Sequence record: KT454805
DNA: 64,000 nucleotides
Strand: one strand, 5' to 3'
Origin: Escherichia phage phiSUSP1
Shown here: piece by piece, positions 4,760 to 27,982 of the stretch
How positions within the stretch are numbered: the stretch's first letter is position 1
Layout: the number at the start of each line of letters is the position of its first letter
Position numbers and translations under genes: made by a program
The notes under the pieces: model-generated
Databases searched by the model: none
Told to the model about the DNA's origin: nothing
The model's input: the letters and a program-made list of their open reading frames with translations, nothing else

Positions 4760-5287
4760 TCAACTTAGTTTTGCAAACTCTCCGTGAAGTTTCATAGAAG
4801 CTTCACAGTAAGCTTTATGGGCTTCTTCAGGGGTGTCATAGTAGCCTAATGACATCTTTTTACCTTTATAGCTTATTTGCGCAACCCACCTACCAGACTT
4901 CTTCTTCAGGCTTACACCCTTATAGCCTGATTTATTGGTGGATAGTTTGCTTTTATTCCAAGCACTTTGGCAGTCGTCTGCTTCTCTTAAGTTTACAATC
5001 CTGTTATCAAGGGAGTCCCCATTACTATGGTCAATAACACCTTTAGGTAACCTACCATACACGTACAGCCATGCGAGTCTGTGCGCTTTATGTGCTTTCT
5101 TGTCAAAATAGATAGTAATCTGCTTATGACCAGTTGAGTCAATCTGGAGGCTTCCCGCTACCTGTCCTGCGTACTGGCTATTAAAAACTTTAACAGCCTT
5201 TGAGTCGCCCTCTCTACGAAGCCAAGTAAAGACCCCTATTTCGGGGTCATAGTGTAGTAGTTCCTTTAAACGTTCTTGTGTAATCAT
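4760..5287 (-). CDS. HNH homing endonuclease with AP2 DNA-binding domain
   Basis: HRLAWLYVYG...DHSNGDSLDNRIVNLR (HNH_3) plus YKGVS...GYYDTPEEAHKAY (AP2); inserted between ligase and polymerase. Confidence 0.8.
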   Translation of the reverse strand: MITQERLKELLHYDPEIGVFTWLRREGDSKAVKVFNSQYAGQVAGSLQIDSTGHKQITIYFDKKAHKAHRLAWLYVYGRLPKGVIDHSNGDSLDNRIVNLREADDCQSAWNKSKLSTNKSGYKGVSLKKKSGRWVAQISYKGKKMSLGYYDTPEEAHKAYCEASMKLHGEFAKLS

Positions 5288-5297
5288 TTTGTCACCA

Positions 5298-7997
5298 TTA
5301 ATGCACTTCCAACCACGATTTACCGACCTTACCAGTACCAGTTACCAGTGTTTTACTCTTTAGTCCTAAGTTCTTAGAGGCTTGCCCGTAATACCAATCA
5401 GTGACAGCCTTCACCTCTGCCGTCATACTTTCTGGACATTCCCAACTTGTCTCATCGTGATAGGAGCACAATAAACGAGCACCTATAGCTGGTTTACGAC
5501 CGTTCAACTTCATCAAACCTTCGTCAATCATACGACGGCAAGCAAGGTTAATTGCCTCGTTCTGAATCTGGCTTTCCGAACCCATGAGCAAGTAGTTCAA
5601 CAGTTTGTGTGGAGACTTACACCACAACCATGCTCCAGCAACCTTGACAAAACCACCTTTAGCAATTGCAGCAGTCTTACCAAATACCTCTTCAAGTGCT
5701 TTCTTAGTTGCTTTAAAGTCAGCTTCCAAGTCATCTAACAGTTTCTTAATCTTCGGCAAACGCACAAAGTAAGTCTGTTTAGTCAATGCACCTTCCTGAG
5801 TAGTCGCAGCTTTAATCGTCTTAGCAAACTTCTCATCACCAGCACCAAACAGCAACGCATAGATGCCATTCTTAGCTTTCTTACGACCTTTACTAATTTC
5901 GTGAAGAAGATTTTCATCCTGAGTCATACGACAAGTCAAGATGTCTTGTTCTTCGTTCAAACTGAAGTAGATACTGTTCAGTGTATGAGCATCAGTGCCT
6001 GAGTAAACTACGTACAAATCGTTTTCAGAGTCATAACGCAGATACTTATCAACTTCTGGATTCAGGTATTCGTCAAAGTGTTTGCAGTAATATCTGCCAT
6101 CTTCCTGACGGATAAACTCAATCTCTTCTTTACCTTGAGTTACCGCTTTGGTGAACTCTTTGTCACCCATAAAGTTACACAGCAAAACAAGCTGTGCAGA
6201 GTTCATGTCAACGGAAACTACGTTGGTTCCTTCTTCACAAATCCAGACTGCCCTCATTGGTTCACCGTAAACAGCAGCCCCAGAAGGTACGTTCACAATC
6301 CCGTATTGTGTCATACGTCCAGTTGAAGTACCAAACACCATTGCACCAGCACTCAAACGACCATCTGGACGAATCTGGTTTAACCAACCCTTTTCATCAT
6401 CCTTTGAGTTCTCAATAGTCCTGCGTCGGTGCATCAAAGTGTAGTACTTCGCAATCTTCTGTCCAAGTTCACCTTCAATCGTATCATAAGATGATTCAGT
6501 CAGTTTCGGTGAAGTACGAATCAAGCAAGGCTCAAGCAAATCTGTGTACTTCTTCACAGACCAGTTGTGTTCGATGTACTGTACACCTTCATGCTCAACA
6601 TAGTTCAACCCGCAACGGTCTACCATCTCTTGCCATTTCGGATGTTTACGAATCATCTTCTTGTTGTCTTTGAAGCGACAAACCTTCACCGGACGACCAT
6701 CAGAATCTTTCTTGTAGTTCCAGTCATCAGGAATCCAGCCAAGAGTTTTCAGATAATCCTTCACAACCGCAACCTGAGTCATGCGTGAAACTTCAAACTC
6801 AATTGGTGTATAAGGTGCATCAATCAAACCTGTGTAACGACTTGACTCAAGTTCGAAGTGGTTTACTACGTGATTGTTGTAGTACTTCACAGTCTTCACA
6901 GTCTTAACTGGTTTCCAGTCTTTGCACTTCTTATCAATCGCAGCATTCAACTCGTTACAAACTGCACGAGCATCTTTCATTGCCACGAAACCTTCTTTGT
7001 ACTCTTCTCCAGTAACCGTGTTAGTTGGAGTGTAGCAGTTACGCTTCTCAATGTTGAAAATCTTGGTAGTTGGTTTACCAAAAGGTTTGATAGCGTAAGT
7101 CTGCATCTCACCATTACGAACCTGCTGACGGAACTTAGTTTTTGGATACTTAGTGATGCGCTTCAGACCATCTGCTTCACCAAATGTCTCAACGTACTCG
7201 TTCCAAGCTTTTGCAAACTCTTCACCAGTGACTTTACCTTTCGTCTTAATAGTCGGTGGCAGATGAGGCTCAACTTCAGCAGCTAATTCATCAGTCATTC
7301 TGTCAAGTTCTTTGACATGGAACTGCATAAGTTCAATATCAGCTTTCCAACCGTTGATAGCTTGCTGACTCATCCAGAAAGATGTTTCTTTAGCTCGCAT
7401 GTAGGTTTCGTAAGTGTCTACACCACACTTCTTCAACTTCAGGTATTCATTATCAAGAGCACGTTTAGCTTTGGCGTTGATTCGAATATCCTCAACAACA
7501 CGGTTCAGAATGTCAGCATTCCAGACACCCCACTCTTCAATCTCTGGCTTACGAACACCAACACGAGCACCCCATGCAGCCAAACCATGAGCACCTTTGT
7601 AACCTTTCGGTGTAGGTCTATCCATCCACTGAACACGAGACTGGATAAGAGAATCCTGAAAGAAGTCTCCCCAAGGTTTACACTTCGGATTATCAAAGTT
7701 CCATAAGTCTGGTGCAATGTGGTTAAACACCCACCAGTCATAGCCAAGACCGTTATGAATGCAGAGACGTTTTGCCTTAAGAGCAAACTCCACACCTTCA
7801 CGAAGACCACCTTTGATGTACTTAGTACACTTGTGACCAAGGATAGGTTCATCGGTGAAGACCCACACAGCAGGTTCGTCACTGTCATCTTTGTAATCTG
7901 CAAATGCCATTACGTGTGCTTTTGTGAACTCAAGGAGTAACCCATCAGTTTCGGTATCACCTACCAAGTGCAAGTTTTCAAAATCTACGTTTTCCAT
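5298..7997 (-). CDS. DNA polymerase, family A (T7-like) with 3'-5' exonuclease domain
   Basis: 899 aa; N-terminal VGDTETDGL exo motif; YALLFGAGDEKFAKT resembles T7 gp5 FIYGFLYGAGDEKIGQ; SYHDETSWECP resembles T7 WVHDEIQVGC. Confidence 0.9.
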   Translation of the reverse strand: MENVDFENLHLVGDTETDGLLLEFTKAHVMAFADYKDDSDEPAVWVFTDEPILGHKCTKYIKGGLREGVEFALKAKRLCIHNGLGYDWWVFNHIAPDLWNFDNPKCKPWGDFFQDSLIQSRVQWMDRPTPKGYKGAHGLAAWGARVGVRKPEIEEWGVWNADILNRVVEDIRINAKAKRALDNEYLKLKKCGVDTYETYMRAKETSFWMSQQAINGWKADIELMQFHVKELDRMTDELAAEVEPHLPPTIKTKGKVTGEEFAKAWNEYVETFGEADGLKRITKYPKTKFRQQVRNGEMQTYAIKPFGKPTTKIFNIEKRNCYTPTNTVTGEEYKEGFVAMKDARAVCNELNAAIDKKCKDWKPVKTVKTVKYYNNHVVNHFELESSRYTGLIDAPYTPIEFEVSRMTQVAVVKDYLKTLGWIPDDWNYKKDSDGRPVKVCRFKDNKKMIRKHPKWQEMVDRCGLNYVEHEGVQYIEHNWSVKKYTDLLEPCLIRTSPKLTESSYDTIEGELGQKIAKYYTLMHRRRTIENSKDDEKGWLNQIRPDGRLSAGAMVFGTSTGRMTQYGIVNVPSGAAVYGEPMRAVWICEEGTNVVSVDMNSAQLVLLCNFMGDKEFTKAVTQGKEEIEFIRQEDGRYYCKHFDEYLNPEVDKYLRYDSENDLYVVYSGTDAHTLNSIYFSLNEEQDILTCRMTQDENLLHEISKGRKKAKNGIYALLFGAGDEKFAKTIKAATTQEGALTKQTYFVRLPKIKKLLDDLEADFKATKKALEEVFGKTAAIAKGGFVKVAGAWLWCKSPHKLLNYLLMGSESQIQNEAINLACRRMIDEGLMKLNGRKPAIGARLLCSYHDETSWECPESMTAEVKAVTDWYYGQASKNLGLKSKTLVTGTGKVGKSWLEVH

Positions 7998-8048
7998 TTT
8001 TACTCCCTCTCAAAATCATTGACTCAATACATTACTGCAAAAAGTTTC

Positions 8049-8078
8049 AAAAAGCAAGTTGACAATTCACTTGACAAG
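8049..8078 (+). promoter_or_regulatory. sigma70-like promoter (tandem TTGACA boxes, TGnTAATCT)
   Basis: TTGACA at 8049 and 8061; extended -10 TGtTAATCT; divergent control region between DNA pol and plus-strand block. Confidence 0.4.
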
Positions 8079-8194
8079 GTGTTAATCTTTGCGAAGTGGG
8101 TTTTAACTTAAAAGACTCCCTTTACAGATTAACTATACAGTTTCTTTAAAACCCTTAAAAGATTTTTAATAGCTTTTAAGAAGCTTTAAAGTTA

Positions 8195-8211
8195 TACGTA
8201 TAGAATACGTA
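8195..8211. promoter_or_regulatory. perfect inverted repeat TACGTAT-aga-ATACGTA (operator candidate)
   Basis: 7-bp arms with 3-bp spacer, 45 bp upstream of ORF 8255. Confidence 0.35.
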
Positions 8212-8254
8212 AAGAAAACAGATTAAGTTTAATAGGTACTTAAAAGAGGGCATT

Positions 8255-8677
8255 ATGCAGAGAATGTTTGTTCACCCAGACATAGCTGACTTCATGAGAG
8301 CTTTAAAAAAGTTGGAAGAACTTGACATTGCTGCTCAAAAGGAATACGCTTACCATCATCGTCGAATGGTTGATGTTCAACATGAGATTGAACTCTCCGA
8401 AGGCTACGATGAAAGAATGAAATGTTCAGTCTTTGAGCATATGAAGGAGATATCGGCTGAGAGGCGTAAAGCAAAAGATACACTCTTCTTGATAGATTCT
8501 TTAAAAAAGAAGTTGCAAAACGGAACAGACTTAGATAACCTAGCAACACTGATTAGCGATGTAGAAAGTTCATGGGATAGACATTACTTCCCAAGGTCTG
8601 AAAAAGTTCTTGACTTTTCCTCTACAGAGAGCTTAAAGTTATCACGACAAACACTTAACAAAATGAGAGAGAATTAA
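8255..8677 (+). CDS. hypothetical protein
   Basis: 140-aa ORF, first gene of plus-strand block. Confidence 0.4.
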   Translation: MQRMFVHPDIADFMRALKKLEELDIAAQKEYAYHHRRMVDVQHEIELSEGYDERMKCSVFEHMKEISAERRKAKDTLFLIDSLKKKLQNGTDLDNLATLISDVESSWDRHYFPRSEKVLDFSSTESLKLSRQTLNKMREN

Positions 8678-8678
8678 T

Positions 8679-9482
8679 ATGACTACTGTAAATGAAATGC
8701 TGGCCTCTAAAGGTATCGATAGCAACTTTATGCTGAACACTATTGAAAGCCTTGCTATCGTTATGCGTAGCAACACCTTCAGTTCACAAGTAATTCCTGA
8801 ATCTTATCAGGTTAACGCAGAGATTTCTGATGAGTCAGCATTTCGCTCACAGGTTGAACTGCTTCTGAATAACCGTCAACTGGCTCTGGCTTCAGTGGCT
8901 GTTGGTGTAGATGCCTTGGCTGGTTATGTCTTTGACAAGATGCAAACTGGCGACTACAAAGTTCTCTCTGAAGAAGAGAAAGAAGCACTGCTTGAGTTCA
9001 CTGAAGACGACACCTTCAACCTGATTATCAACTCAATTGCAAGCGTGATGGCTGTACTTGAGAAACGTGTTACAGAAAAACTCCCACACTATGAAAAACT
9101 TGATTGGGGTTTTGCAGATATCTTTGAGCGTTCACAGGAAATGGTGAAGCTGACTAAAGAGCAACTTCAAGAGGTTGTTGACAATGAAGCTGAACGTGGA
9201 ATTGATGAGATTCAGGTCAAACTGACCGCTCTGGTTCCTTCAATCATCACAGTGATGAGTATTCACGCTCTGTTCGAAGTTGCAGGTATGATTGATGCAC
9301 CTATTGAGTTTGTGGAGCAGATTGCTGGTAATGTAAGTGGTGAAGCACTGCGTGAAGTGATTATGCAAACTGGTGCGGCAGTTCTTCAAGACAAGATTGC
9401 CATCCACTTCGGTGATGAATTTGTAGCAACTATTCAGGCTCTGTCTGAAAAAGAAAAGCTTGATTCTACACAAATTCACTAA
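8679..9482 (+). CDS. hypothetical acidic protein
   Basis: 267-aa ORF, 1-nt gap to upstream gene. Confidence 0.4.
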   Translation: MTTVNEMLASKGIDSNFMLNTIESLAIVMRSNTFSSQVIPESYQVNAEISDESAFRSQVELLLNNRQLALASVAVGVDALAGYVFDKMQTGDYKVLSEEEKEALLEFTEDDTFNLIINSIASVMAVLEKRVTEKLPHYEKLDWGFADIFERSQEMVKLTKEQLQEVVDNEAERGIDEIQVKLTALVPSIITVMSIHALFEVAGMIDAPIEFVEQIAGNVSGEALREVIMQTGAAVLQDKIAIHFGDEFVATIQALSEKEKLDSTQIH

Positions 9483-9493
9483 TAGAATTGTTT

Positions 9494-9525
9494 TCCCAAA
9501 GCCTCCTTAATTGGGGGCTTTTTCG
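9494..9525 (+). terminator. rho-independent terminator (terminator-RBS cassette)
   Basis: hairpin ending GGGGGCTTTTT followed by CGTATGGAGATA RBS; near-identical cassette at 13815-13862. Confidence 0.45.
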
Positions 9526-9542
9526 TATGGAGATAAAGGTAT

Positions 9543-10286
9543 ATGAAAAGTATTATTGCATTTACTGGAAAGGCTCGTTCTGGTAAGGACACTTCCTGCA
9601 TGTTGACAAAGAACTTTCTTCAAGAAGAAGAAGGTTACAACGTTCACATCTTTGCTTTTGCAGACAGTTTAAAAGAATCTGCTGCATACATCTTTGGGCT
9701 TGACTGGAATGATTTGTATGGCGAAACTAAAGAGACACCTCAAAAGTTCAACTTGAGATTCTCTGACTTGTACTTTGCAGTTCAATGTTCACTTGAACAA
9801 GTATTCCCACACAAAAACTTACACCTTGACGTTAAGCTATGTGGTGAACTAACTGGACGATTAATCATGGAACTGAAGAAGGTTGCTAAACCGACTATCT
9901 TAACCAGAATGGGGCTTAGTAAAACTTATAAGTTCTCTTCACGTCAGATTCAACAAATCTGGGGGACTGAAGTTGTCAGGAAGGTTCTTGGAGAGAAGTT
10001 CTGGATTCGTGACCTTGCTGAAAGGATGGAAAGATTCTTTGAGTCGTGCTCAAGAAATAACCAGTATGGCATCGCATTGATTAGTGACTTGCGATTTGAC
10101 CATGAAGCAGAGTTCTTAAAGTCTTTTGACAGCCAAATCATTGAGGTAAAAAGAGACAATCAGGTTAAGGTTTCATCACATAAATCAGAAAATGGAATTT
10201 CTACCAAATTTGAACGTGACATTATTCAAAACAATGGTAGTCTTGAAGACCTCGAAAATAAGTTGAAAGCTATTATCATTAAATAA
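9543..10286 (+). CDS. deoxynucleoside monophosphate kinase (T4 gp1-like)
   Basis: P-loop GKARSGKDT like T4 gp1 GVKRSGKDT; C-terminal NNGSLEDLENKLKAII like T4 NDGSLEELFSKIKNTL. Confidence 0.8.
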   Translation: MKSIIAFTGKARSGKDTSCMLTKNFLQEEEGYNVHIFAFADSLKESAAYIFGLDWNDLYGETKETPQKFNLRFSDLYFAVQCSLEQVFPHKNLHLDVKLCGELTGRLIMELKKVAKPTILTRMGLSKTYKFSSRQIQQIWGTEVVRKVLGEKFWIRDLAERMERFFESCSRNNQYGIALISDLRFDHEAEFLKSFDSQIIEVKRDNQVKVSSHKSENGISTKFERDIIQNNGSLEDLENKLKAIIIK

Positions 10287-10291
10287 GAGAG

Positions 10292-10489
10292 ATGAAGATG
10301 AGAGTGAATAATTTAGAAGTTGTTGACCATCGTTCGGTGGAACTCTCATCTCTTTCCAAGGAAGTTATGATGGAGCGGCTTGAAAGGGTCGCTTCAAGAC
10401 GGAAAGAGATTGCAGAAGAGATTCACGAGCTAGACAAGATTGAAAATGGCTTGAAAGCAGAACTAAAACGCAGAGGTGCTAATGTCTAA
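10292..10489 (+). CDS. hypothetical small protein
   Basis: 65-aa coiled-coil-like ORF. Confidence 0.3.
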   Translation: MKMRVNNLEVVDHRSVELSSLSKEVMMERLERVASRRKEIAEEIHELDKIENGLKAELKRRGANV

Positions 10490-12473: not shown

Positions 12474-12726
12474 TGCGTATCTTAAGGAGGGCTTTACGCC
12501 CTTCTATGAAGAAACAAATTCAGTAAAATTTAAAAAAGAGTGCTTGACTCGTATAGACGATTTCTGTAAAGTACTCATCAACGAAGGACATACGGTTGAG
12601 TTAGAGCACAGAGAACTTGAGATTGGCCTTGATGGAATCTTAGTTTCTGTTGACAATGATACTGGATATATGTTTAAGTTGACTGACAAAACATTTGAAT
12701 ACGAAATTTATCGGAGAGTTGTATGA
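12445..12726 (+). CDS. hypothetical small protein
   Basis: 93-aa ORF overlapping primase-helicase 3' end. Confidence 0.3.
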   Translation: MMTARLKLTDAYLKEGFTPFYEETNSVKFKKECLTRIDDFCKVLINEGHTVELEHRELEIGLDGILVSVDNDTGYMFKLTDKTFEYEIYRRVV

Positions 12727-12866
12727 AACATTCTAAAGCGTTTGAAAAAGTATTTGGCGATTCACTGAAAGCAACTGCTGGTAAATCTGCTGCACACTAC
12801 GAAGCAAAACGTGTTCGCACTGGTAAGACAGCACGTAAAGCAGCTAAAAAATCTGCTTAAAAGTGT

Positions 12867-12895
12867 TTGACAAGGGAGTATGAAGTCTGTAAGAT
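12867..12895 (+). promoter_or_regulatory. sigma70-like promoter
   Basis: TTGACA-N17-TAAGAT upstream of ORF 12946. Confidence 0.55.
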
Positions 12896-12945
12896 TGTAC
12901 TCCTTCAAGTTTGAAAGAAATAATTTTGAGAAAGAGGATTTAAGA

Positions 12946-13797
12946 ATGTCTAAAGTTGTTAAAATGAAATCTCCGGTAGAAAAATACAATGGTACTGAAC
13001 GTCAGACTCTGCGTTACTTGCTGAAAGATGTTTGGTTCTACTACCTGAACACTATTCCACGTCCGGGAAAAGGCAAGTCAGTTGATAAGAAATTCCCAGG
13101 CAAAGATTGTAACTACAGCGTTTCGATTCTGGCAAAAGACGGTAACAAACTCTTCAAAGAGTTCACCAAGTCTAAAAAGAATCCTGATGGTTGGGATAAA
13201 GTTACAACTGAAGCAGTTGATGCAGATGACTTCGAAGAGAAGTTTGGTTGCAAACCACCATTTGAAGCAGACACTTATCACATTCTGAAAGTAAGTCGTG
13301 CTGCTGCTTATAAAGATGGTGCAGTCTGGACAGCGAAACAGTCATTCCCTGTTATGCTGATTGAAGAAGTTAACGGTAAGCGTGTTGCAGTTAAACAGCC
13401 GATGAAGAAAATCAAGGCTCAACATTCTGACAAACACGATGACGACAAAACTTATGATGTTATTCACCCAGATATCGCAGTCGGCAACGGTTCATTTGGT
13501 AGTGTGATTCTTGCAACTCACTTCTACACTTTTGAAAGCAACGTTCTGACGAAGCCGATTCAGGAACAGTTTATCATTGATACTCTGGTTCCGTACACTG
13601 GTGGTACAGGTGGTAACGGTGAGCCTGAACTGGATGAAGATGAACTGGCTCTGCTTGGTCTGGATGGCGTTGAAGATAACGGTGAAATCACCGAAGAAGA
13701 TGCGAAGGATTCTGAAGATACTAACTCTGACGATGACGACGATGATATGCCAGACCCAGATGACGACGACGAAGAAGATTTCGATACTGAAGATTAA
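12946..13797 (+). CDS. putative ssDNA-binding protein (acidic C-terminal tail)
   Basis: C-terminal DDDDDDMPDPDDDDEEDFDTED tail as in phage SSBs; located between primase-helicase and exonuclease; ATG 12946 with AAGAGGA RBS. Confidence 0.4.
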   Translation: MSKVVKMKSPVEKYNGTERQTLRYLLKDVWFYYLNTIPRPGKGKSVDKKFPGKDCNYSVSILAKDGNKLFKEFTKSKKNPDGWDKVTTEAVDADDFEEKFGCKPPFEADTYHILKVSRAAAYKDGAVWTAKQSFPVMLIEEVNGKRVAVKQPMKKIKAQHSDKHDDDKTYDVIHPDIAVGNGSFGSVILATHFYTFESNVLTKPIQEQFIIDTLVPYTGGTGGNGEPELDEDELALLGLDGVEDNGEITEEDAKDSEDTNSDDDDDDMPDPDDDDEEDFDTED

Positions 13798-13814
13798 TTC
13801 TCAGTAGTTACTAC

Positions 13815-13845
13815 AAAGCCCTGTACTTAGTATGGGGCTTTTTCG
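13815..13845 (+). terminator. rho-independent terminator (terminator-RBS cassette)
   Basis: AAAGCCC-loop-GGGGCTTTTT then CGTATTGGAGATA. Confidence 0.45.
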
Positions 13846-13859: not shown

Positions 13860-14900
13860 ATGGAAAAGTACACGTTAACAAAACTCCCAGATACTGTGAC
13901 ACATGTCTTTATTGACTCTGACAGTATTGCTTACAAGGGAGCCTGTGTCGTTGAGAAAGCAAAGTACAAGTATGTGAATAAACTCACTGCTGAAGAGTCT
14001 GATGCCTTTGAAAGTGCTAAAGATGCTAATCAATGGCTATCTGACCAGAGAGTTCTGACAGAGGAACTTGGTCTTGCATTCGATGAAGATGAATGGGAAA
14101 GACAATCTTGGAAAGAAGCTAAGAGTGAAAAAGAAGCTATTATGGCAACTCAACAAGTTCTTCAGGAATGGTTGAAGGTTGTCGGGAAAGAGCGAACTTG
14201 GATGGGCTACCTTACTGAAAAAGGTGTTCACAAGCATAAAGATATCAAAGGTCTTGAACATCAGTATCAAGGTAATCGTAAAGACGCAGTAACACCTACG
14301 CATTTAGTTGCTTGTCGTGAGTATCTTCTGTCACGACCTGAGTTTAAGCTCTTACTTAATGGGTTTGAAGCTGACTCCATTGTTATTGCAAAAGCTGAGA
14401 AGATGGGTAAGAAGGCTGCTCTTATGAGTATTGATAAAGACCTTCGCCAAGCGGAAGGAACTTACTGTATTGATATGACTTACGAGAAAGCCCCTCTGAT
14501 TTTCATTGCAGATGGTAACGTAGGTGATATTTGGGATTGTCCTATCAAGTCTAAGCCGAAAGCTAAAAAGACTGTTGGTGTAGGCTTCAAATTCCTCTGC
14601 TATCAAGCTGTAGCAGGAGATAACGCAGATAACTACTTTGGCCTTAAGGGTGCAGGGAAAGTTGCTGTAATGAACGCTCTGGAAGGTAAAGAGACCTATA
14701 AAGAGTGTCTTGACGCTATCTATGAACTCTACGCTAAGAAAGAGTCATATACTTATGAATCGTGGGATGGTCAGGTGATTACAAAAACACCTCTTGAATT
14801 AATGCACCAGCACTTCTGGATTGCCTATCAAGAACGTAACCCTAAAGACGATTTCACCTTTGCTAAATATGGTTGGGAGCCTGTTATGAATGAAGATTAA
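13860..14900 (+). CDS. 5'-3' exonuclease / flap endonuclease (T7 gp6-like)
   Basis: VFIDSDSIAYK, SIDKDLRQ and AGDNADNYFGLKGAGK match T7 gp6 VMDGDWLVFQ, SCDKDFK and GDITDGYSGIAGWG. Confidence 0.75.
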   Translation: MEKYTLTKLPDTVTHVFIDSDSIAYKGACVVEKAKYKYVNKLTAEESDAFESAKDANQWLSDQRVLTEELGLAFDEDEWERQSWKEAKSEKEAIMATQQVLQEWLKVVGKERTWMGYLTEKGVHKHKDIKGLEHQYQGNRKDAVTPTHLVACREYLLSRPEFKLLLNGFEADSIVIAKAEKMGKKAALMSIDKDLRQAEGTYCIDMTYEKAPLIFIADGNVGDIWDCPIKSKPKAKKTVGVGFKFLCYQAVAGDNADNYFGLKGAGKVAVMNALEGKETYKECLDAIYELYAKKESYTYESWDGQVITKTPLELMHQHFWIAYQERNPKDDFTFAKYGWEPVMNED

Positions 14901-15390
14901 AGGTTTTGGCAATTGCCCTGAATATGGACATTGGATTTCACTGTGCGGGGAGATTGACCCCGCTAAGTATTTTGGTTTCGTTTACTTAGTGTACTGCAAA
15001 AAGACTGGACAGTATTACATCGGTAAGAAGCAGTTTAACAATGTCACCAAGAAGAAAGTAGCTGGAAAGACCAGACGTAAGATTGTGACAAAAGAGAGTG
15101 ACTGGATGGTTTACCAGACCTCTTCTGAGTACATTAAGAAAGATATTGAAACTTTCGGTGAAAAAGAGTTTGACTTCTATATTGTGCAAACTTATTATAC
15201 GCGAGGTGGGTTGGTCTACGGAGAAGCTAACCTTCAACATAAGTTTGACGTCATGACAAAAAGGATTGACTCCAAGCTTCGACTCTTCTACAATGCAAAC
15301 ATTGCAGCAATCAAGTTTCTTACTAAAGAGACTTATGAAGATGCTGAGAAGAGAATCCATAAAATCATGAAACTTAATGAGAGAGAATAA
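14890..15390 (+). CDS. GIY-YIG family endonuclease-like protein
   Basis: FVYLVYCKKTGQYYIGKK resembles GIY-(10)-YIG motif. Confidence 0.45.
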   Translation: MKIKGFGNCPEYGHWISLCGEIDPAKYFGFVYLVYCKKTGQYYIGKKQFNNVTKKKVAGKTRRKIVTKESDWMVYQTSSEYIKKDIETFGEKEFDFYIVQTYYTRGGLVYGEANLQHKFDVMTKRIDSKLRLFYNANIAAIKFLTKETYEDAEKRIHKIMKLNERE

Positions 15391-16991: not shown

Positions 16992-16996
16992 TCTCT

Positions 16997-21163: not shown

Positions 21164-23305
21164 ATGGTTAAAGTACAAGTTATTAAGAAAGATGGTTCAC
21201 TAGAAAAACCAAATGTAAATAAAATCGTTGAAGCAGTCACCAAGTCAGCTAATAGAGTTGGGTACAAAGAACTACCAATAGAAGTTATCCATGCTCTTGA
21301 GTCAGCTTTTAACAGACTGCTTGCCAGAGCAACTAATCAGAATGCAATGCTAATCTCTGTAGATGACATTCATAGCATCGTTGAAGGGACTCTGGCAGAG
21401 GTGAACCATGAAATCTATGAGTCATATTCAACATACAGAAACTACCGTAAAGAGGTGGCTCAGAATTGGGATGAACTATATCAGAAGACTAAAGACACAC
21501 TCTTCTTAGGTGACCGTGAGAATGCTAACTTTGACAGTAGCTTAATCTCCACAAAAGGCTCAATCATCCGTGGTTACCTGACAAAAGAAATCTTTAAGCA
21601 GTACCACTTAACACCAGAAGAAACAAGTGCTATTGAAGATGGATTCATTTATATCCATGACTTAAGAGATTTAATCTTCGGTGGTATTAACTGCTGCTTG
21701 TTTGACATTGGAAGTGTCCTGAAAGGTGGCTTTGAAATGTCCGGCATCGAATACTGTGAACCTAAGTCTGTGCTATCAGCTTTACAGGTTATCGGTGATG
21801 TTGTACTCTCAGCAACTGCACAGCAGTTTGGAGGGTTCACTATTCCAGAGATTGATAAGGTTCTTGTGCCATATGCTAAGAAGTCTTTTGAGTATCATCT
21901 GGAAAAAGCAAAGCAATATAATATCCCAGGCAAGGGAGCATACTACTACGCTAAAGAGCAACTCCAGATTGAACTAACTCAGGGATTCCAATCACTGGAA
22001 ATGAAGCTGAACACTGTTCCTTGTAGCCGTGGGGACTTTGCATTCACAACATTAACATTTGGTTTACTTGAACCAGATATGGCTAGTGAAGATAACCGTT
22101 TGCAATTTATGATTGCTAAGACTATCCTAGATGTTAGGATGAATGGTCAAGGTAAATCTAAGAAGCCTGTTGTGTTTCCTAAGCTGGTTTATATCTATGA
22201 TGAAACAAGACATATACTAGACCCTTGGCAGGGGCAGCTTTATGATAAAGCTATTGAGTGTTGTTCTAAAGCTATGTATCCAGACTTCTTAAGCGTGTCT
22301 GGTAGTGGTTCTGTTGCAGAGGCTTTTGAACGTTCAGGTGCAGTCATCTCTCCAATGGGTTGCAGGGCTTTCTTATCTCCTTATTACGATGATGAAGGTA
22401 AAGAGTTCTATACAGGTCGAGCAAACATTGGTGCAGTATCTCTTAATCTGCCGATGATTTACAAGTATTCTGAAGAGAATGACTTAGACTTTTGGAAAGA
22501 ACTTGACAAGTATCTTGAGATGATTAGAAGCTTCCACAAGAAGCGCTATGAGATGATTGCTAATATGCCAGCAAGTTCTAACCCTCTTGCATTCACTCAA
22601 GGTGGATTGTATAAAGGTCATAAGAAGCCAACTGATAAGATTGGTTGGGATACTGTGAAATCTTTTACAGCATCTTTTGGTGTAACTGCATTAGATGAGT
22701 TAACAGTGCTTGCCCAAGGTAAAAGGTTGCATGAATCTGATGGTGATATTGCAAGTAAGGTTTTAAGCTACCTGAATAGCAAGCTGGAGCAGTTTAAGCA
22801 GGAAGATGGTTTCTTGTATGCCCTCTATGGTACACCTGCTGAGAGCCTTTGTGGTACGCAATTGAAGCAGTTCAGAAATATGTTCGGAGTTGTTAAAGGT
22901 GTTTCTGATAAAGAATACTTTACAAATAGTTTTCACATGAATGTTGGTGCAGATATCACACCGTTTGAAAAGCAAGACTTAGAAGAACCTTTCTTCCATT
23001 CTTGTAATGGAGGCCATATCCAGTATGTTCGTATCGCTAACCCAGAGAACCACAAAGCCATTAGAGCTTGTGTAACAAGGGGTATGGGTAAAGGTTTCTA
23101 TCAAGGTGTTAACTTTGATTTAGCAATCTGTGAAAATTGTGGTCACCGTCCAAGTGCAGATGTTGAATTATGTCCTAAGTGCAACTCACACGATATCTCT
23201 GTGATTAATAGGGTGTGTGGTTATCTTTCGTTCACTAAGATTAAAGGACAGTCTCGAATGAACGATGCAAAAATTGCCGAGATTAAGGATAGAAAGTCTA
23301 TGTAA
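21164..23305 (+). CDS. nrdD: anaerobic ribonucleoside-triphosphate reductase
   Basis: C-terminal glycyl-radical motif RVCGYLS and Cys4 zinc site (CENCGH...CPKCNSH); start moved to ATG 21164 after terminator. Confidence 0.85.
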   Translation: MVKVQVIKKDGSLEKPNVNKIVEAVTKSANRVGYKELPIEVIHALESAFNRLLARATNQNAMLISVDDIHSIVEGTLAEVNHEIYESYSTYRNYRKEVAQNWDELYQKTKDTLFLGDRENANFDSSLISTKGSIIRGYLTKEIFKQYHLTPEETSAIEDGFIYIHDLRDLIFGGINCCLFDIGSVLKGGFEMSGIEYCEPKSVLSALQVIGDVVLSATAQQFGGFTIPEIDKVLVPYAKKSFEYHLEKAKQYNIPGKGAYYYAKEQLQIELTQGFQSLEMKLNTVPCSRGDFAFTTLTFGLLEPDMASEDNRLQFMIAKTILDVRMNGQGKSKKPVVFPKLVYIYDETRHILDPWQGQLYDKAIECCSKAMYPDFLSVSGSGSVAEAFERSGAVISPMGCRAFLSPYYDDEGKEFYTGRANIGAVSLNLPMIYKYSEENDLDFWKELDKYLEMIRSFHKKRYEMIANMPASSNPLAFTQGGLYKGHKKPTDKIGWDTVKSFTASFGVTALDELTVLAQGKRLHESDGDIASKVLSYLNSKLEQFKQEDGFLYALYGTPAESLCGTQLKQFRNMFGVVKGVSDKEYFTNSFHMNVGADITPFEKQDLEEPFFHSCNGGHIQYVRIANPENHKAIRACVTRGMGKGFYQGVNFDLAICENCGHRPSADVELCPKCNSHDISVINRVCGYLSFTKIKGQSRMNDAKIAEIKDRKSM

Positions 23306-23313
23306 GGTGGTGA

Positions 23314-23877
23314 ATGAACTATGAACTAATCTATGACAAGTTAATGAAGAAAGCACACTCTGAGAGGGGTGTGCCTTTAACATTTTACAAATGCCAAGGC
23401 TTAGGTTATGAGAGACACCATATCAAACCACTGTGTCTCGGAGGGGATAGATTTGACGGTAGCAATATAGCCTTATTAACACCAAGGGAACATTATATTG
23501 CACACAAGCTTTTGGTTAAGATGCATCCTGAAAAGTACAAACTCTGGATTGCTTGGCAAAGGCTGTCTACAGATGGACTAAATAGAAAGGTTTCATCAAG
23601 AGACCATGAACACGTCAAACGTTTAAACTCAAAAGCTATGTCTATAATCAATAAAGGTAGATTGTTTACAGATGAGCATAGGTTTAGATTGAGTCAATCC
23701 CAGATTGGTAATACCAAGCCCAAAGGGTGTAAGAGGTCTTTAGAAACAAGGCAACGAATGTCAGAATCTGCAAAGAAACCACAGGCGAAAAAGACGTGCC
23801 CATACTGCGGCATGACAGGTGGTGCAAGCAACATGACACGTTACCATTTTGAGAATTGTAAAAGTAAATCTATGTAA
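23314..23877 (+). CDS. HNH homing endonuclease
   Basis: HHIKPLCLGGD...NIALLTPREHYIAH HNH motif; NUMOD-like repeats; inserted between nrdD and nrdG. Confidence 0.8.
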   Translation: MNYELIYDKLMKKAHSERGVPLTFYKCQGLGYERHHIKPLCLGGDRFDGSNIALLTPREHYIAHKLLVKMHPEKYKLWIAWQRLSTDGLNRKVSSRDHEHVKRLNSKAMSIINKGRLFTDEHRFRLSQSQIGNTKPKGCKRSLETRQRMSESAKKPQAKKTCPYCGMTGGASNMTRYHFENCKSKSM

Positions 23878-23942
23878 GTAGTTGACAAGGTGGTGTAGGT
23901 CTTGATAGGCTTACATCACCTTTTTTTATTAGGAATCACAAC

Positions 23943-25803: not shown

Positions 25804-26319
25804 ATGTACTATTCAAATCTAAAACATGCTGCTGCAATGTCTGTTCTTCGTCTTGATTTCGATGAGCGTCAAGAGTTCATTGAATCCCACAAGTATAATC
25901 CTTCAAATTCTAATCACATGGTACTTTGGAACCGTGGTAAGTTCCGTGACAGTACCCTGTTTCAATACTATCCCCACTATACCATTGATAACCTCTATGA
26001 ATATTGTGTTGTCAAGAACACTATAGCAACTCTTAACAAGCTTTGTAGATACTCTGGGAAGAAAGCTTTCACATTAGGCCACCATAAGCCTGTGACAAAA
26101 GGTGGAGAACATCATTGCTCAAACTGGTTTATTCAGACACAAGAAGATAATCAGAAGCAAGGTGAGAAGCTTCCTGAGACTCCTAAGATGACTTGGGAAG
26201 AACAAAAAGCATATCTCAGAAATAATATGCCACCAATGCTTGACAAGGACTATTCAATTCTGGCAATATCTCTCTTGTTGAAGCTTGAGACAGTTTATGA
26301 GGCAACTTATCATGGCTAG
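25804..26319 (+). CDS. HNH-motif nuclease-like protein
   Basis: LGHHKPVTKGGEHHCSNWFIQTQEDNQKQG resembles HNH His-Me finger. Confidence 0.4.
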   Translation: MYYSNLKHAAAMSVLRLDFDERQEFIESHKYNPSNSNHMVLWNRGKFRDSTLFQYYPHYTIDNLYEYCVVKNTIATLNKLCRYSGKKAFTLGHHKPVTKGGEHHCSNWFIQTQEDNQKQGEKLPETPKMTWEEQKAYLRNNMPPMLDKDYSILAISLLLKLETVYEATYHG

Positions 26320-26600
26320 AGAACAATGGGAAATCAAAGAACTCATTAGTGAAGCTGGAAATGGTAGTGAGATGTATATGATACGTGGTCACGTCCCAGA
26401 TGCACTTGCTATTGAAATGATTGACCACTACTCCAACGGATTCTATAAAGAATTTGGAGAGCCAAATATTGAACGTACTTGGACAAAACCAGTACCAGAT
26501 GGAACAGGGAACTGTTCAGTTATCTATCACATTGTAGACCCAAAGAAATGTAAGTCAGCTATGGCTGTAACATTTGTAACTTTTGACTGAGAGAAATATT

Positions 26601-27482
26601 ATGAAAACTATTATTCAAGTCCTGATTAATTCAAACTCTAAAGGCACTCACCAAGAGAACTTCAACATTATCCAGTTCCCTTCAGGAGAAATTGGTGGTA
26701 ACTTCTCAGAAGATTTGGTAGACTTTGTTGAACATGCTGCTGGTAAGATTGATAACGTAATCTTCACGGTACAAGGCTATGATAAAGATACACTCTTTGC
26801 ATTAGCTCTGGCTAAAGAAGCAATTGACCGTATGATTCCTCAGAAAGCAGCTATGAAGACTGTTGTCTTTGGTTTCTTACCAAATGCTAGATATGACCGT
26901 CACATGTTTAAAGGTGATGCAGCAGCACTTAAAGCATTTGCAAATCTTGTAAACGCTATGGAGTTTGATGCAATTTGTGCTCTGGATGCTCATAGTAACG
27001 TGGCAGAGAATCTATTTAAGTGCTTCTACAACCTACCTCAAAAAGAGGCAGCAGTACACTTTGCAAGTGACCCACGAATTGATTACTTAGTGGCTCCAGA
27101 TGCAGGTGCAGCTAAGAAGACTGAAGAAGCTGCTAAGGATGTTGAGAAGCCTTATATCACAATGGCTAAGGTGCGTAACCTGAAAACTGGTGAAATCACT
27201 GGTATGCGAATCCTTGATGACGTAGATTTAACAGGCAAGACTGTCATGATTCTGGATGATATCTGTGACGGTGGTCGTACCTTCATTGAGGCTGCAAAGT
27301 ATCTTCGTGAAGCTGGTGCAGAACGTGTAGAACTGTATGTCACTCATGGGATTTTCTCTAAAGGTGTTGAAAATCTTCTTGACAACGGTATTGACCATAT
27401 CTACACTACAAACTCACTAGGCGATGTAGAAGACCGTGGACTTTCACACTTCTCACAAGTGACTGTAGCAAACATTGAATAG
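26601..27482 (+). CDS. ribose-phosphate pyrophosphokinase family protein (Prs-like; candidate ADP-ribose pyrophosphokinase)
   Basis: VVFGFLPNARYDR resembles Prs AVIPYFGYARQDR; PRPP-binding loop TVMILDDICDGGRT resembles CVLVDDMIDTGGT; THGIFS resembles THPIFS. Confidence 0.85.
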   Translation: MKTIIQVLINSNSKGTHQENFNIIQFPSGEIGGNFSEDLVDFVEHAAGKIDNVIFTVQGYDKDTLFALALAKEAIDRMIPQKAAMKTVVFGFLPNARYDRHMFKGDAAALKAFANLVNAMEFDAICALDAHSNVAENLFKCFYNLPQKEAAVHFASDPRIDYLVAPDAGAAKKTEEAAKDVEKPYITMAKVRNLKTGEITGMRILDDVDLTGKTVMILDDICDGGRTFIEAAKYLREAGAERVELYVTHGIFSKGVENLLDNGIDHIYTTNSLGDVEDRGLSHFSQVTVANIE

Positions 27483-27490
27483 GTAACAAG

Positions 27491-27982
27491 ATGGATAAGG
27501 GTTACTTTGAAAAATACCTAAGATACGAACCAGAGACAGGTTTGTTAATTTGGAAAGTAACCCTTTGTAGCACCGCTATTGCTGGTAATGTGGCTGGCAC
27601 AAGGTCTAAGAAGGGTTATATCCAAGTTCAGATAAACAAGAAGAGGTACTATGCACACAATATCGCATGGATTCTATCTGGAGGTGAGATACCAAGTGGA
27701 TATGAGATAGACCACATAGACCTTGACAAGACAAATAATAAGTTGGAAAACTTAAGACTGAGTACAAAGTCACAAAACCAAAGAAATAGAGGTATACAAA
27801 AGAACAACAAAACTGGCGTGAAGGGTGTAAGTGTATGTACACAGACAGGTCTTTATAAAGCAAGAGTGATGCTTTATCATAAAGAATACTTTTGCGGAAG
27901 ATTTAAAACGCTAGAAGAAGCGAAAGAAGCTGTAATTAAAAAACGATTAGAACTTCATGGTAAGTTTGCAAGACATAACTAA
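27491..27982 (+). CDS. HNH homing endonuclease with AP2 domain
   Basis: YYAHNIAWILSGG...IDHIDLDKTNNKLENLR HNH_3; GVKGVS...YKARV AP2; inserted between Prs-like and NAMPT-like genes. Confidence 0.8.
   Translation: MDKGYFEKYLRYEPETGLLIWKVTLCSTAIAGNVAGTRSKKGYIQVQINKKRYYAHNIAWILSGGEIPSGYEIDHIDLDKTNNKLENLRLSTKSQNQRNRGIQKNNKTGVKGVSVCTQTGLYKARVMLYHKEYFCGRFKTLEEAKEAVIKKRLELHGKFARHN

What the first reader, a model, noticed from the sequence alone, without database searches (positions are those of the whole stretch)
4760..27982. High density of homing endonucleases splitting functional gene pairs
Seen: HNH-AP2 genes sit between ligase and DNA polymerase (4760-5287) and between the Prs-like and NAMPT-like genes (27491-27982); an HNH gene sits between nrdD and nrdG (23314-23877); another HNH lies within the tRNA cluster (59970-60374); an HNH-motif ORF (25804-26319) and a GIY-YIG-like ORF (14890-15390) are also present. 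Established: free-standing homing endonucleases in T4-like and Felix-O1-like phages insert between conserved genes and drive marker exclusion. Here they flank exactly the modules of most interest (NAD+ pair, RNR), which may affect their inheritance in mixed infections.
Basis: partly seen in the sequence, partly recalled or inferred. Interest (0 to 1): 0.35.

Follow-up and report, generated by a model that had tools for sequence, protein, structure and literature searches.

The report
Homing endonuclease genes in Felix-O1-like phage
This Felix-O1-like coliphage carries four selfish, mobile nuclease genes wedged next to its DNA polymerase, ribonucleotide reductase, NAD-rescue and tRNA genes, plus two old, fixed nuclease-like genes; this is real, but it is the ordinary and already published state of this phage group.

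Summary
All six ORFs exist at the stated coordinates. Five have nuclease-domain support; 25804-26319 has only a conserved HNH-like motif. The window is an Ounavirinae phage, closest to SUSP2.

Four genes behave as free-standing homing endonuclease genes (HEGs). They are present in a minority of about 260-300 relatives and sit 8-14 nt after the upstream gene or tRNA.
- HNH-AP2 gene after DNA polymerase (4760-5287).
- MobE-like HNH after nrdD (23314-23877).
- HNH-AP2 gene between the prs-like and NAMPT-like genes (27491-27982).
- HNH gene between tRNA-Trp and tRNA-Ser (59970-60374).

The third and fourth are far more conserved between distant phages than their flanks: 92-96% versus 64-87%, and 100% versus 91-97%. 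Three of the four carry short HEG-linked flank tracts, in the nrdD 3' end, the NAMPT-like 5' end and the tRNA-Trp/Ser genes.

The GIY-YIG gene and the HNH-motif gene are fixed across the subfamily and are not mobile insertions.

HEG abundance and HEG insertions and deletions in Felix-O1-like phages are published. T4 has the same placements (mobC between nrdG and nrdD, segB among tRNAs). Cleavage and marker exclusion remain untested. Low interest.

The parts
4760..5287 (-). HEG1: free-standing HNH_3-AP2 endonuclease gene. It starts 10 nt after the DNA polymerase stop and ends inside a conserved TTGACAAGGTG hairpin motif.
   Evidence: Pfam HNH_3 plus AP2; phrog_99. It is 100% identical to SUSP2 gp046. 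In 26 IMG/VR loci the site after the polymerase gene holds an HNH-AP2 gene in 12 and is empty in 12. Those HEGs are 44-100% identical at the protein level, while the polymerase is 88-99% identical in the enterobacterial loci. Junction alignment.
14890..15390 (+). GIY-YIG (SegE-type) nuclease-domain gene. It is fixed in the subfamily and is not a polymorphic insertion. Databases often misname it 'NAD synthetase'.
   Evidence: Pfam SegE_GIY-YIG 6e-27 over residues 22-138 of 166. Present in 256/300 records, with identity that tracks the flanks. SUSP2 gp057 and phrog_447 carry the name 'NAD synthetase'.
23209..23305 (+). The last ~97 nt of nrdD form a HEG3-linked allele. It encodes ...RVCGYLSFTKIKGQ... 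where HEG-less genomes encode ...RVCGYLGWTKIKG[T/E]....
   Evidence: Identity to Moogle-type nrdD falls from 99% to 80% in this tract only. All 4 HEG3-carrying genomes have SF and all 21 empty genomes have GW, directly after the glycyl-radical motif.
23294..23306 (+). Left copy of a 13-nt direct repeat, AAGTCTATGTAAG (the nrdD stop region), that brackets HEG3.
   Evidence: The right copy, AAATCTATGTAAG, is at 23866-23878. The same structure is present in Hafnia phage SarahDanielle.
23314..23877 (+). HEG3: MobE-like HNH-NUMOD3-zinc-finger endonuclease gene. It lies between the nrdD stop and the nrdD terminator.
   Evidence: phrog_655 and NUMOD3; HNH core matches colicin E9. It is 26-40% identical to Mob proteins of T4-like phages, and 50 Ounavirinae records hold copies at 60-80% identity, with none at 80% or above. 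Absent from SUSP2 and from the Moogleviruses, whose flanks are 95-100% identical.
23887..23922 (+). Intrinsic terminator hairpin (16 pairs plus a T-run) downstream of HEG3. In HEG-less relatives it directly follows nrdD.
   Evidence: It is annotated as a terminator in Mijalis.
25804..26319 (+). Conserved ORF with an HNH-like motif (phrog_3500). It is a fixed core gene of the subfamily, not a mobile HEG.
   Evidence: Present in 221/257 records and 27/27 IMG/VR loci at 73-94% identity, tracking the flanks. The motif is invariant in the orthologues. No Pfam family. The structure model is weak and the fold search was uninformative.
27491..27982 (+). HEG5: HNH_3 endonuclease gene with a divergent AP2 domain, inserted between the prs-like (Adps) and NAMPT-like (Namat) genes. 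It replaces a ~30-nt intercistronic hairpin.
   Evidence: Pfam HNH_3 9.3e-19; AP2 18.6 bits. Present in 60/283 records, including Felix O1 itself, and in 5/27 IMG/VR loci. It is 92-96% identical to the Felix O1 copy, against 64-87% for the flanks. Junctions.
27999..28095 (+). The first ~85-100 nt of the NAMPT-like gene form a HEG5-linked allele.
   Evidence: This tract is near-identical in all six HEG5-carrying genomes from three lineages. It differs from the empty-site genomes at fixed positions, ATGAGT versus ATGACT and TAC versus TAT.
59885..59955 (+). tRNA-Trp(cca) with a weak D-arm, part of the block that travels with HEG6.
   Evidence: Rfam tRNA 32.6 bits in a local scan; ARAGORN at relaxed threshold. 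The homologous tRNA-Trp is called in wV8. SUSP2 has no callable copy.
59970..60374 (+). HEG6: zinc-finger HNH endonuclease gene. It lies 14 nt after tRNA-Trp and 13 nt before tRNA-Ser(tga).
   Evidence: phrog_2255 3e-45. It is absent from SUSP2, which has 289 nt of unrelated sequence there. It is 100% identical to Mooglevirus Sf19 over 59900-60300, where the flanks are 91-97% identical. 21 records carry it at this site.
60388..60477 (+). tRNA-Ser(tga) allele linked to HEG6. It is about 74% identical to the SUSP2 allele, while the surrounding DNA is 97-100% identical.

Best explanation
Four of the six genes are free-standing homing endonuclease genes of known families: 4760-5287, 23314-23877, 27491-27982 and 59970-60374. 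Each sits at the 3' end of a conserved gene or tRNA and is probably read from the upstream transcript.

The inferred mechanism is as follows. In a cell co-infected with a relative that lacks the gene, the enzyme would cut the empty allele in or near the adjacent conserved sequence. Recombinational repair from the HEG-bearing genome would then copy in the HEG together with the DNA between the cut site and the insertion site. The genome carrying the HEG is protected, either by substitutions in that stretch or by disruption of the site.

Steps shown here:
- Nuclease domains with intact motifs.
- Intergenic placement.
- Sporadic distribution among near-identical relatives.
- For HEG5 and HEG6, much higher conservation than their flanks.
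- HEG-linked flank tracts in nrdD, the NAMPT-like gene and the tRNA-Trp/Ser genes.

Steps inferred:
- Actual cleavage and its position. My guess for HEG3 is the DNA that encodes the NrdD glycyl-radical motif region. My guess for HEG5 is the start of the NAMPT-like gene or the intercistronic hairpin.
- Biased inheritance in mixed infection.

The GIY-YIG gene (14890-15390) and the HNH-motif gene (25804-26319) are old, vertically inherited core genes. They are possibly domesticated nucleases, and their role is unknown.
For: Domains.

Occupancy (share of records that cover at least 80% of a flank+HEG+flank query):
- HEG3: 29 of 353 matching records, about 260 of them Ounavirinae (my estimate).
- HEG5: 60 of 283.
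- HEG1: 51 of 324.
- HEG6: 21 records, against roughly 300 Ounavirinae records (my estimate).
- By contrast, 256/300 for the GIY-YIG gene and 221/257 for the HNH-motif gene.

Independent IMG/VR sample: HEG5 in 5/27 loci, HEG3 in 0/21, and an HNH-AP2 gene after the polymerase gene in 12/26.

Excess conservation:
- HEG5 protein is 92-94% identical in Felixounaviruses whose prs-like and NAMPT-like proteins are 75-76% identical. At the DNA level it is 92-96% identical, against 64-87% for the flanks.
- The HEG6 block is 100% identical to Sf19, whose flanks are 91-97% identical. The SUSP2 backbone is 97-100% identical on both sides but lacks the block.

Linked tracts:
- The NAMPT-like 5' allele is shared by all 6 carriers.
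- The last ~97 nt of nrdD drop from 99% to 80% identity to Moogle-type genomes, with SF against GW in 4/4 carriers and 21/21 empties.
- A 13-nt direct repeat brackets HEG3.

Precedent from T4: mobC lies between nrdG and nrdD, mobE between nrdB and nrdA, and segB inside the tRNA cluster. Cleavage at a distance and co-conversion are documented there (PMC2988022, PMC2330249, PMC2790892).
Against: - No nuclease activity, cut site or inheritance bias was or could be measured here.
- HEG3 is no more conserved than its flanks (64-80% DNA identity to other copies). Its history could therefore be old vertical descent with repeated loss, plus one recombination into this backbone.
- The HNH-AP2 genes after the polymerase gene are much more diverged than the polymerase (44-100% against 88-99%). 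That fits repeated invasion by different alleles or decay, not one recent sweep.
- The window's own HEG1 is identical to that of SUSP2 along with its flanks, so it gives no information about mobility.
- The genomes are related, so the 4/4 versus 21/21 association is not 25 independent observations.
- The window is a large-scale mosaic whose breakpoints (~18 kb and ~49.5 kb) are not at HEGs. General recombination also moves DNA in this group.
Confidence: 0.85

Rival explanations
1. The presence/absence pattern comes from ordinary mosaic recombination and deletion between related phages. The endonucleases are now inactive passengers (relics) and do not drive their own spread.
For: - The genome is a large mosaic whose breakpoints are unrelated to HEGs.
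- HEG3 is as diverged as its flanks.
- The HNH-AP2 genes after the polymerase gene are more diverged than the polymerase.
- Three empty-site genomes (L026, L034, L040) carry part of the HEG5-linked NAMPT-like tract. This would fit loss of the HEG.
Against: - All four ORFs are full length with intact catalytic motifs.
- HEG5 and HEG6 are far more conserved than their flanks across genera.
- The recombination junctions hug the HEGs on one side, and the linked tracts begin at the same place in different lineages. Random recombination does not predict either pattern.
Confidence: 0.12
2. The genes are domesticated and serve the phage, for example as AP2-type regulators of the neighbouring polymerase or NAD-rescue genes, or as nucleases that degrade host or competitor DNA. 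On this view their position reflects function rather than selfish mobility.
For: - Two of the six genes (the GIY-YIG gene and the HNH-motif gene) really are fixed across the subfamily.
- AP2 is a DNA-binding domain that has been reused as a regulator elsewhere (PMC10448857 discussion).
- HEG5 replaces an intercistronic hairpin inside the two-gene NARP1-type operon, so it could alter expression.
Against: - The four polymorphic genes are missing from most close relatives. These include Bas63, whose operon counters SIR2-HerA defence with the empty site (row H147; bioRxiv 10.1101/2024.02.11.579819).
- A useful regulator would not be expected in only about 7-25% of genomes, with horizontal-transfer signatures.
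Confidence: 0.08
3. The insertions belong to introns or inteins. On this view the HEGs are intron- or intein-encoded rather than free-standing.
For: [quoted passage not shown] RNR and polymerase genes are classic intron and intein hosts.
Against: - Rfam finds no group I intron anywhere in the window.
- Polymerase (899 aa) and nrdD (736 aa) are uninterrupted.
- Every HEG lies after a stop codon or between tRNA genes, with its own start codon.
Confidence: 0.01

Closest known systems
Phage T4 free-standing Mob HNH endonucleases: mobC (between nrdG and nrdD) and mobE (between nrdB and nrdA)
   Same: - HEG3 is an HNH gene with the Mob-type architecture.
- It is 26-40% identical to Mob proteins of T4-like phages.
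- It sits between nrdD and nrdG, as T4 mobC does (PMC2988022, Table 1).
- It lies behind the upstream RNR gene, inside that gene's transcription unit.
- It is associated with a converted tract in the adjacent RNR gene, like MobE and nrdB (PMC2790892).
   Different: - It occurs in a different phage subfamily (Ounavirinae).
- No activity data exist.
- The inferred target is the nrdD 3' end around the glycyl-radical motif codons, and this is a guess from allele association. The T4 mobC target is listed as unknown.
- A 13-nt direct repeat of the nrdD stop region brackets the gene. I did not find this described for mobC.
The six HNH endonuclease genes of Salmonella phage Felix O1, and HEG insertions/deletions among Felix-O1-like phages (Whichard 2010, PMC3185647; Moreno Switt 2013, PMC3728262)
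   Same: - Same phage group and the same phenomenon.
- HEG5 is the orthologue of Felix O1 ORF305 at the identical site, at 92-96% DNA identity.
- The papers already state that HEG insertions and deletions are the main differences between these genomes, and that the HEGs sit between or within conserved genes.
   Different: Those papers do not report the per-site occupancy, the excess conservation, or the linked flank alleles described here.
HNH-AP2 homing endonucleases (the family noted in protists, cyanobacteria and phages, and the 'IPA-HNH' HEGs of ICP1; Barth et al. 2023, PMC10448857)
   Same: HEG1 and HEG5 have an N-terminal HNH_3 domain and a C-terminal AP2 domain. That survey found such genes near DNA polymerase genes (29%) and RNR genes (18%).
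   Different: - The HNH_3 domains here are canonical Pfam hits. The ICP1 ones needed profile-profile searches.
- HEG5 sits inside a NARP1-type (adps-namat) operon. I did not see that neighbourhood listed in the passages I read.
Phage T4 SegB, a homing endonuclease inside the tRNA gene cluster (PMC2330249)
   Same: HEG6 lies between tRNA genes in the tRNA array. Neighbouring tRNA alleles travel with it, matching the SegB-driven preferential inheritance of the T4 tRNA region.
   Different: - SegB is a GIY-YIG enzyme, whereas HEG6 is a zinc-finger HNH (phrog_2255).
- Homologues of HEG6 sit in the tRNA arrays of many unrelated large phages: 34 of 80 IMG/VR loci.

Membership tests
Free-standing homing endonuclease gene (functional class, as defined for the T4 seg/mob genes) | Encodes a nuclease domain of a HEG family (HNH or GIY-YIG) with the catalytic motif intact | tested here: met
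   HEG1, HEG3, HEG5 and HEG6.
Free-standing homing endonuclease gene (functional class, as defined for the T4 seg/mob genes) | Intergenic; not inside an intron or intein | tested here: met
   No Intron_gpI hit in the window. Each gene starts 8-14 nt after a stop codon or tRNA.
Free-standing homing endonuclease gene (functional class, as defined for the T4 seg/mob genes) | Sporadic presence/absence among close relatives at one precise site | tested here: met
   Met for HEG1, HEG3, HEG5 and HEG6. Not met for 14890-15390 or 25804-26319, which are fixed.
Free-standing homing endonuclease gene (functional class, as defined for the T4 seg/mob genes) | Evidence of horizontal spread with co-conversion of flanking DNA | tested here: met
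   Clear for HEG5 and HEG6. HEG3 has a linked tract but no excess conservation. The window's own copy of HEG1 gives no information.
Free-standing homing endonuclease gene (functional class, as defined for the T4 seg/mob genes) | Site-specific cleavage of the HEG-less allele and super-Mendelian inheritance in mixed infection | not testable with these tools
   Needs biochemistry and phage crosses.
Mob-type (MobE-like) HNH endonucleases | N-terminal HNH core and sequence homology to the Mob proteins of T4-like phages | tested here: met
   tblastn gives 26-40% identity over 85-100% of HEG3 to annotated MobE and homing endonucleases of T4-like phages. phrog_655 1e-49. Colicin E9 HNH core, E 2e-4.
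Mob-type (MobE-like) HNH endonucleases | Nuclease-associated modular DNA-binding domain (NUMOD) C-terminal to the HNH core | tested here: met
   NUMOD3 22.1 bits against a cut-off of 20.4. In addition, a C-terminal CxxC...C motif is conserved in four orthologues.
HNH-AP2 homing endonucleases | HNH_3 domain followed by an AP2 DNA-binding domain | tested here: met
   HEG1: both domains score above the Pfam cut-offs. HEG5: HNH_3 is above the cut-off. AP2 reaches only 18.6 bits against a cut-off of 33.3 but spans the full profile, and it aligns with the AP2 region of HEG1. For HEG5 the AP2 part is therefore probable rather than certain.
Seg-type GIY-YIG homing endonucleases (applied to 14890-15390) | GIY-YIG catalytic domain | tested here: met
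   Pfam SegE_GIY-YIG 6e-27, residues 22-138.
Seg-type GIY-YIG homing endonucleases (applied to 14890-15390) | Separate C-terminal DNA-binding domain and a sporadic, mobile distribution | tested here: not met
   Only 28 residues follow the nuclease domain. The gene is present in 256/300 records, with identity that tracks the flanks. I therefore do not file it as an active HEG. It has the family's nuclease domain only.
HNH (beta-beta-alpha-Me) nuclease superfamily (applied to 25804-26319) | Recognisable HNH domain by profile or by fold | tested here: inconclusive

The most novel reading that the evidence does not exclude
The most novel reading that the evidence leaves open has three parts.

- The MobE-like enzyme (HEG3) recognises the DNA that encodes the NrdD glycyl-radical motif region (...RVCGYLGW...). 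Phages carrying it survive because their nrdD has an 'immune' GW-to-SF allele at an otherwise conserved position.
- The HNH-AP2 gene inside the adps-namat (NARP1-type) operon drags the 5' end of namat with it.
- The phrog_2255 HNH family is a specialist of phage tRNA arrays that shuffles tRNA genes (here tRNA-Trp and a tRNA-Ser allele) between phages.

Together these would make HEGs direct drivers of allele exchange in the RNR, anti-defence and tRNA modules of this phage group.
Probability: 0.45. Interest if true: 0.35.

Novelty: already known. Interest (0 to 1): 0.2.

Why it matters
The practical value is modest. It identifies which parts of Felix-O1-like genomes are mobile. That matters when comparing, classifying or engineering these widely used Salmonella and E. 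coli phages, and when reading synteny around the NARP1-type NAD+ rescue operon and the RNR genes.

The analysis also yields concrete candidate target sites for three uncharacterised endonucleases: the nrdD glycyl-radical region, the adps-namat junction, and the tRNA-Trp/Ser interval. These could be tested quickly, and the enzymes might be useful as site-specific nucleases. It corrects a propagated misannotation, in which the GIY-YIG gene is called 'NAD synthetase'. It does not reveal a new kind of system.

Tried and rejected
1. I first thought the SUSP2-like/Moogle-like mosaic breakpoint coincided with HEG3, because one search showed a block boundary at 23305. A 500-nt identity scan places the breakpoints at ~18 kb, inside nrdA, and at ~49.5 kb. 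I rejected the idea and corrected it in the notebook.

2. I looked for further HEGs among 20 other ORFs, using Pfam and PHROGs. None was found.

3. I looked for introns in the window. None was found.

4. I tried to settle whether 25804-26319 is an HNH nuclease.
   - Sequence search of solved structures found nothing.
   - Local hhalign against the other HEG families gave no signal; the alignments had Neff 1.3.
   - A homologue search found only 20 clusters, all Ounavirinae-like and without Pfam domains.
   - The question remains inconclusive.

5. The solved-structure searches for HEG5, HEG6 and the GIY-YIG gene gave no useful relatives.

6. I tried to fetch SUSP1 (KT454805) to test whether the window is that phage. 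The record is not in the collection. Annotation notes in Sf19 and radambza refer to SUSP1 homologues of HEG6 and HEG3, so the window is probably SUSP1 or a near relative, but this is unverified.

7. I considered reading TTGACAAGGTG after HEG1 and HEG3 as a shared sigma-70 promoter. The spacing to a -10 element does not fit, and both copies start hairpins. I left it as an observation.

Full report
**What the window is.** Megablast places the window in the Ounavirinae (Felix-O1-like myophages). The closest record is Escherichia phage SUSP2, genus Suspvirus.
- Positions 1-18000 and 49500-64000 are 95-100% identical to SUSP2.
- Positions 18000-49500 are only 70-88% identical to SUSP2, but 90-96% identical to Moogleviruses such as Mijalis, HP1 and Sf13-19.
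- The genome is therefore a mosaic, and its breakpoints do not coincide with any endonuclease gene.
- Annotation notes in relatives point to SUSP1 homologues of two of the genes. The window is probably SUSP1 or something very close. That record is not in the collection, so I could not confirm this.

**Checking the observation.**
- 4760-5287(-) is HNH_3 plus AP2.
- 27491-27982 is HNH_3 with a divergent AP2. The AP2 match is 18.6 bits across the whole profile, and the protein is a full-length paralogue of the first at 33% identity.
- 23314-23877 is a MobE-like HNH with NUMOD3 and a C-terminal zinc-finger-like motif.
- 59970-60374 is a zinc-finger HNH, phrog_2255 3e-45.
- 14890-15390 has a SegE-type GIY-YIG domain, 6e-27.
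- 25804-26319 has no family assignment. It does carry an HNH-like motif that is invariant in its orthologues. Further tests of that gene were inconclusive.

Twenty other ORFs showed no further endonuclease, and the window holds no group I intron.

A 130-aa ORF separates the nrdD-side gene from nrdG. Four small ORFs separate the polymerase-side gene from the ligase gene.

**Which genes are insertions.** I queried the phage collection with each gene plus about 650 nt of flank on each side. The gene makes up more than 27% of each query, so a record that covers at least 80% of the query must hold the gene at that site.

| Gene | Records with the gene at the site |
|---|---|
| GIY-YIG gene (14890-15390) | 256 of 300 |
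| HNH-motif gene (25804-26319) | 221 of 257 |
| HEG3 (nrdD side) | 29 of 353 matching records, about 260 of them Ounavirinae (my estimate) |
| HEG5 (prs-like/NAMPT-like) | 60 of 283, Felix O1 included |
| HEG1 (polymerase side) | 51 of 324 |
| HEG6 (tRNA cluster) | 21, against roughly 300 Ounavirinae (my estimate) |

- For HEG3, tblastn finds 50 records at 60-80% identity and none higher.
- The HEG1 figure is rough, because the small flanking ORFs vary.
- The GIY-YIG and HNH-motif genes are fixed. The latter is in 27 of 27 IMG/VR loci at 73-94% identity, in step with its neighbours.
- An independent IMG/VR sample agrees: HEG5 in 5 of 27 loci, HEG3 in 0 of 21, and an HNH-AP2 gene after the polymerase gene in 12 of 26.
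- SUSP2, the nearest relative, lacks HEG3, HEG5 and HEG6.

**Anatomy of the sites.** Each polymorphic gene follows its upstream neighbour in the same orientation.
- Gaps: 10 nt after the polymerase stop, 8 nt after the nrdD stop, 8 nt after the prs-like stop, and 14 nt after tRNA-Trp.
- HEG3 sits between the nrdD stop and the strong nrdD terminator at 23887-23922. It is bracketed by a 13-nt direct repeat of the nrdD stop region, at 23294-23306 and 23866-23878. The same structure is seen in Hafnia phage SarahDanielle.
- HEG1 ends inside a conserved TTGACAAGGTG hairpin that directly follows the polymerase gene in empty genomes.
- HEG5 replaces a ~30-nt intercistronic hairpin (GGGGCTGAAAAGCCCC) present in empty genomes.
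- HEG6 sits between a weak-D-arm tRNA-Trp(cca) and tRNA-Ser(tga).

**Signatures of mobility, HEG5.** The window's copy is 92-96% identical to the Felix O1 copy, while the flanking genes are 64-87% identical. In Felixounaviruses the protein is 92-94% identical, against 75-76% for the neighbouring proteins. All six carriers examined, from three lineages, share a near-identical first 85-100 nt of the NAMPT-like gene. That stretch differs from the empty genomes at fixed positions.

**Signatures of mobility, HEG6.** The block from about 59876 to 60400 is 100% identical to Mooglevirus Sf19, whose flanks are 91-97% identical. The SUSP2 backbone is 97-100% identical on both sides but has 289 nt of other sequence in between. 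The block includes tRNA-Trp and a distinct tRNA-Ser allele.

**Signatures of mobility, HEG3.** This gene shows no excess conservation. It is 64-80% identical to the other copies, much like its flanks. The window's nrdD is 92-99% identical to Moogle-type nrdD, except in its last ~97 nt, where identity drops to 80%. All four carriers encode ...RVCGYLSFTKIKGQ..., and all 21 empty genomes encode ...RVCGYLGWTKIKG[T/E].... The change sits directly after the glycyl-radical motif, which aligns with T4 NrdD. In Felixounaviruses the diverged tract starts at the same place. This is what is expected if the cut site lies near those codons, because the DNA between the cut and the HEG is then always co-inherited. 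I stress that this is inference from related genomes.

**Signatures of mobility, HEG1.** The window copy is identical to that of SUSP2, together with its flanks. Across the family the site holds very different HNH-AP2 alleles (44-100%) next to a conserved polymerase. That suggests repeated invasion or decay.

**Mechanism.** The best-supported reading is classical intronless homing, as worked out for T4. The enzyme cuts the HEG-less allele in a co-infecting relative, and recombinational repair copies in the HEG and the adjacent DNA (PMC2988022). Domains, placement, distribution, excess conservation and linked tracts are shown here. Cleavage, cut positions and biased inheritance are inferred.

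The rivals are less likely for the four polymorphic genes.
- Passive relics moved by general recombination: confidence about 0.12.
- Domesticated regulators or nucleases: about 0.08. Some form of the domestication idea is the natural reading for the two fixed genes.
- Intron or intein genes: effectively excluded.

**Comparison with what is known.**
- Whichard et al. reported six HNH genes in Felix O1 (PMC3185647).
- Moreno Switt et al. stated that HEG insertions and deletions are the major differences among Felix-O1-like phages, and that the HEGs sit between or within conserved genes (PMC3728262).
- Barth et al. showed that HNH-AP2 and other HEGs cluster next to polymerase and RNR genes across phages (PMC10448857).
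- T4 has mobC between nrdG and nrdD, mobE between nrdB and nrdA, and segB inside the tRNA cluster, where it drives preferential inheritance of the tRNA region (PMC2988022, PMC2330249, PMC2790892).
- HEG5 is the orthologue of Felix O1 ORF305 at the same site.
- The prs-like/NAMPT-like pair corresponds to the NARP1 operon (Adps and Namat) shown in the Felixounavirus Bas63 to counter NAD+-depleting defence (bioRxiv 10.1101/2024.02.11.579819). Bas63 has the empty site (H147).

**Verdict.** The phenomenon is already published for this phage group and closely mirrors T4. The small additions here are the per-site occupancies, the HEG-linked alleles that suggest target sites, and the link between the phrog_2255 family and tRNA arrays (34 of 80 loci). 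Interest is low.

Noticed in passing
window 1-64000 (breakpoints near 18000 and 49500): The genome is a mosaic. The outer parts are 95-100% identical to SUSP2 (Suspvirus). The middle 31 kb is 70-88% identical to SUSP2 but 90-96% identical to Moogleviruses. The left breakpoint lies inside nrdA. Neither breakpoint is at an endonuclease gene.
   Followed up: partly
window 59885-59955: A tRNA-Trp(cca) with a weak D-arm was missed by the default ARAGORN run and by the whole-window Rfam scan. It scores 32.6 bits (gathering cut-off 29) in a local scan. It brings the tRNA count to 26 and travels with the tRNA-cluster HNH gene. SUSP2 has only an uncallable remnant there.
   Followed up: yes
L088 2781-3064; L013 4784-5067; L049 2082-2406 (relatives, not the window): Some Felixounaviruses carry group I introns that the window lacks. 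One is in the DNA polymerase gene at residue 714/715 (BPS17W1, REP11; 62 bits). Another is in nrdD near residue 425 (EC6; 53.6 bits). Larger inserts of about 730 nt occupy the same nrdD position in L048, L050 and L055. This explains the 'DNA polymerase (x2)' annotations.
   Followed up: partly
window 14890-15390: The conserved GIY-YIG gene is named 'NAD synthetase' in phrog_447 and in many GenBank records, including SUSP2 gp057. Nothing supports that name. Pfam gives SegE_GIY-YIG at 6e-27.
   Followed up: yes
window 4753-4763 (-), 8071-8081 (+), 23882-23892 (+): The 11-mer TTGACAAGGTG occurs exactly three times. Allowing one mismatch gives 7 matches against 1.9 expected. Two of the exact copies directly follow the stop codons of the polymerase-side and nrdD-side endonuclease genes and begin hairpins. 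The third lies in the divergent intergenic region upstream of 8255. Its role (promoter, terminator or processing site) is unknown.
   Followed up: partly
L089-L168 (IMG/VR loci): Homologues of the tRNA-cluster HNH protein (34-87% identity) lie within 0-300 nt of tRNA genes, inside arrays of 5-24 tRNAs, in 34 of 80 loci from diverse large phage contigs. They sit next to many different tRNA species. The family looks like a tRNA-array specialist.
   Followed up: partly
window 26583-29816: The prs-like and NAMPT-like genes correspond to the NARP1 operon (Adps and Namat) characterised in the Felixounavirus Bas63. The endonuclease gene splits this two-gene anti-defence operon and removes its intercistronic hairpin. 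Three empty-site genomes (L026, L034, L040) carry part of the endonuclease-linked namat tract, which is possibly a scar of loss.
   Followed up: partly
window 20 kb region around 14890; relatives Sf16, pinkbiff, heid, EcSzw_1: In several relatives an extra HNH homing endonuclease gene is inserted next to the fixed GIY-YIG gene, between it and the exonuclease gene. The window has this site empty.
   Followed up: no
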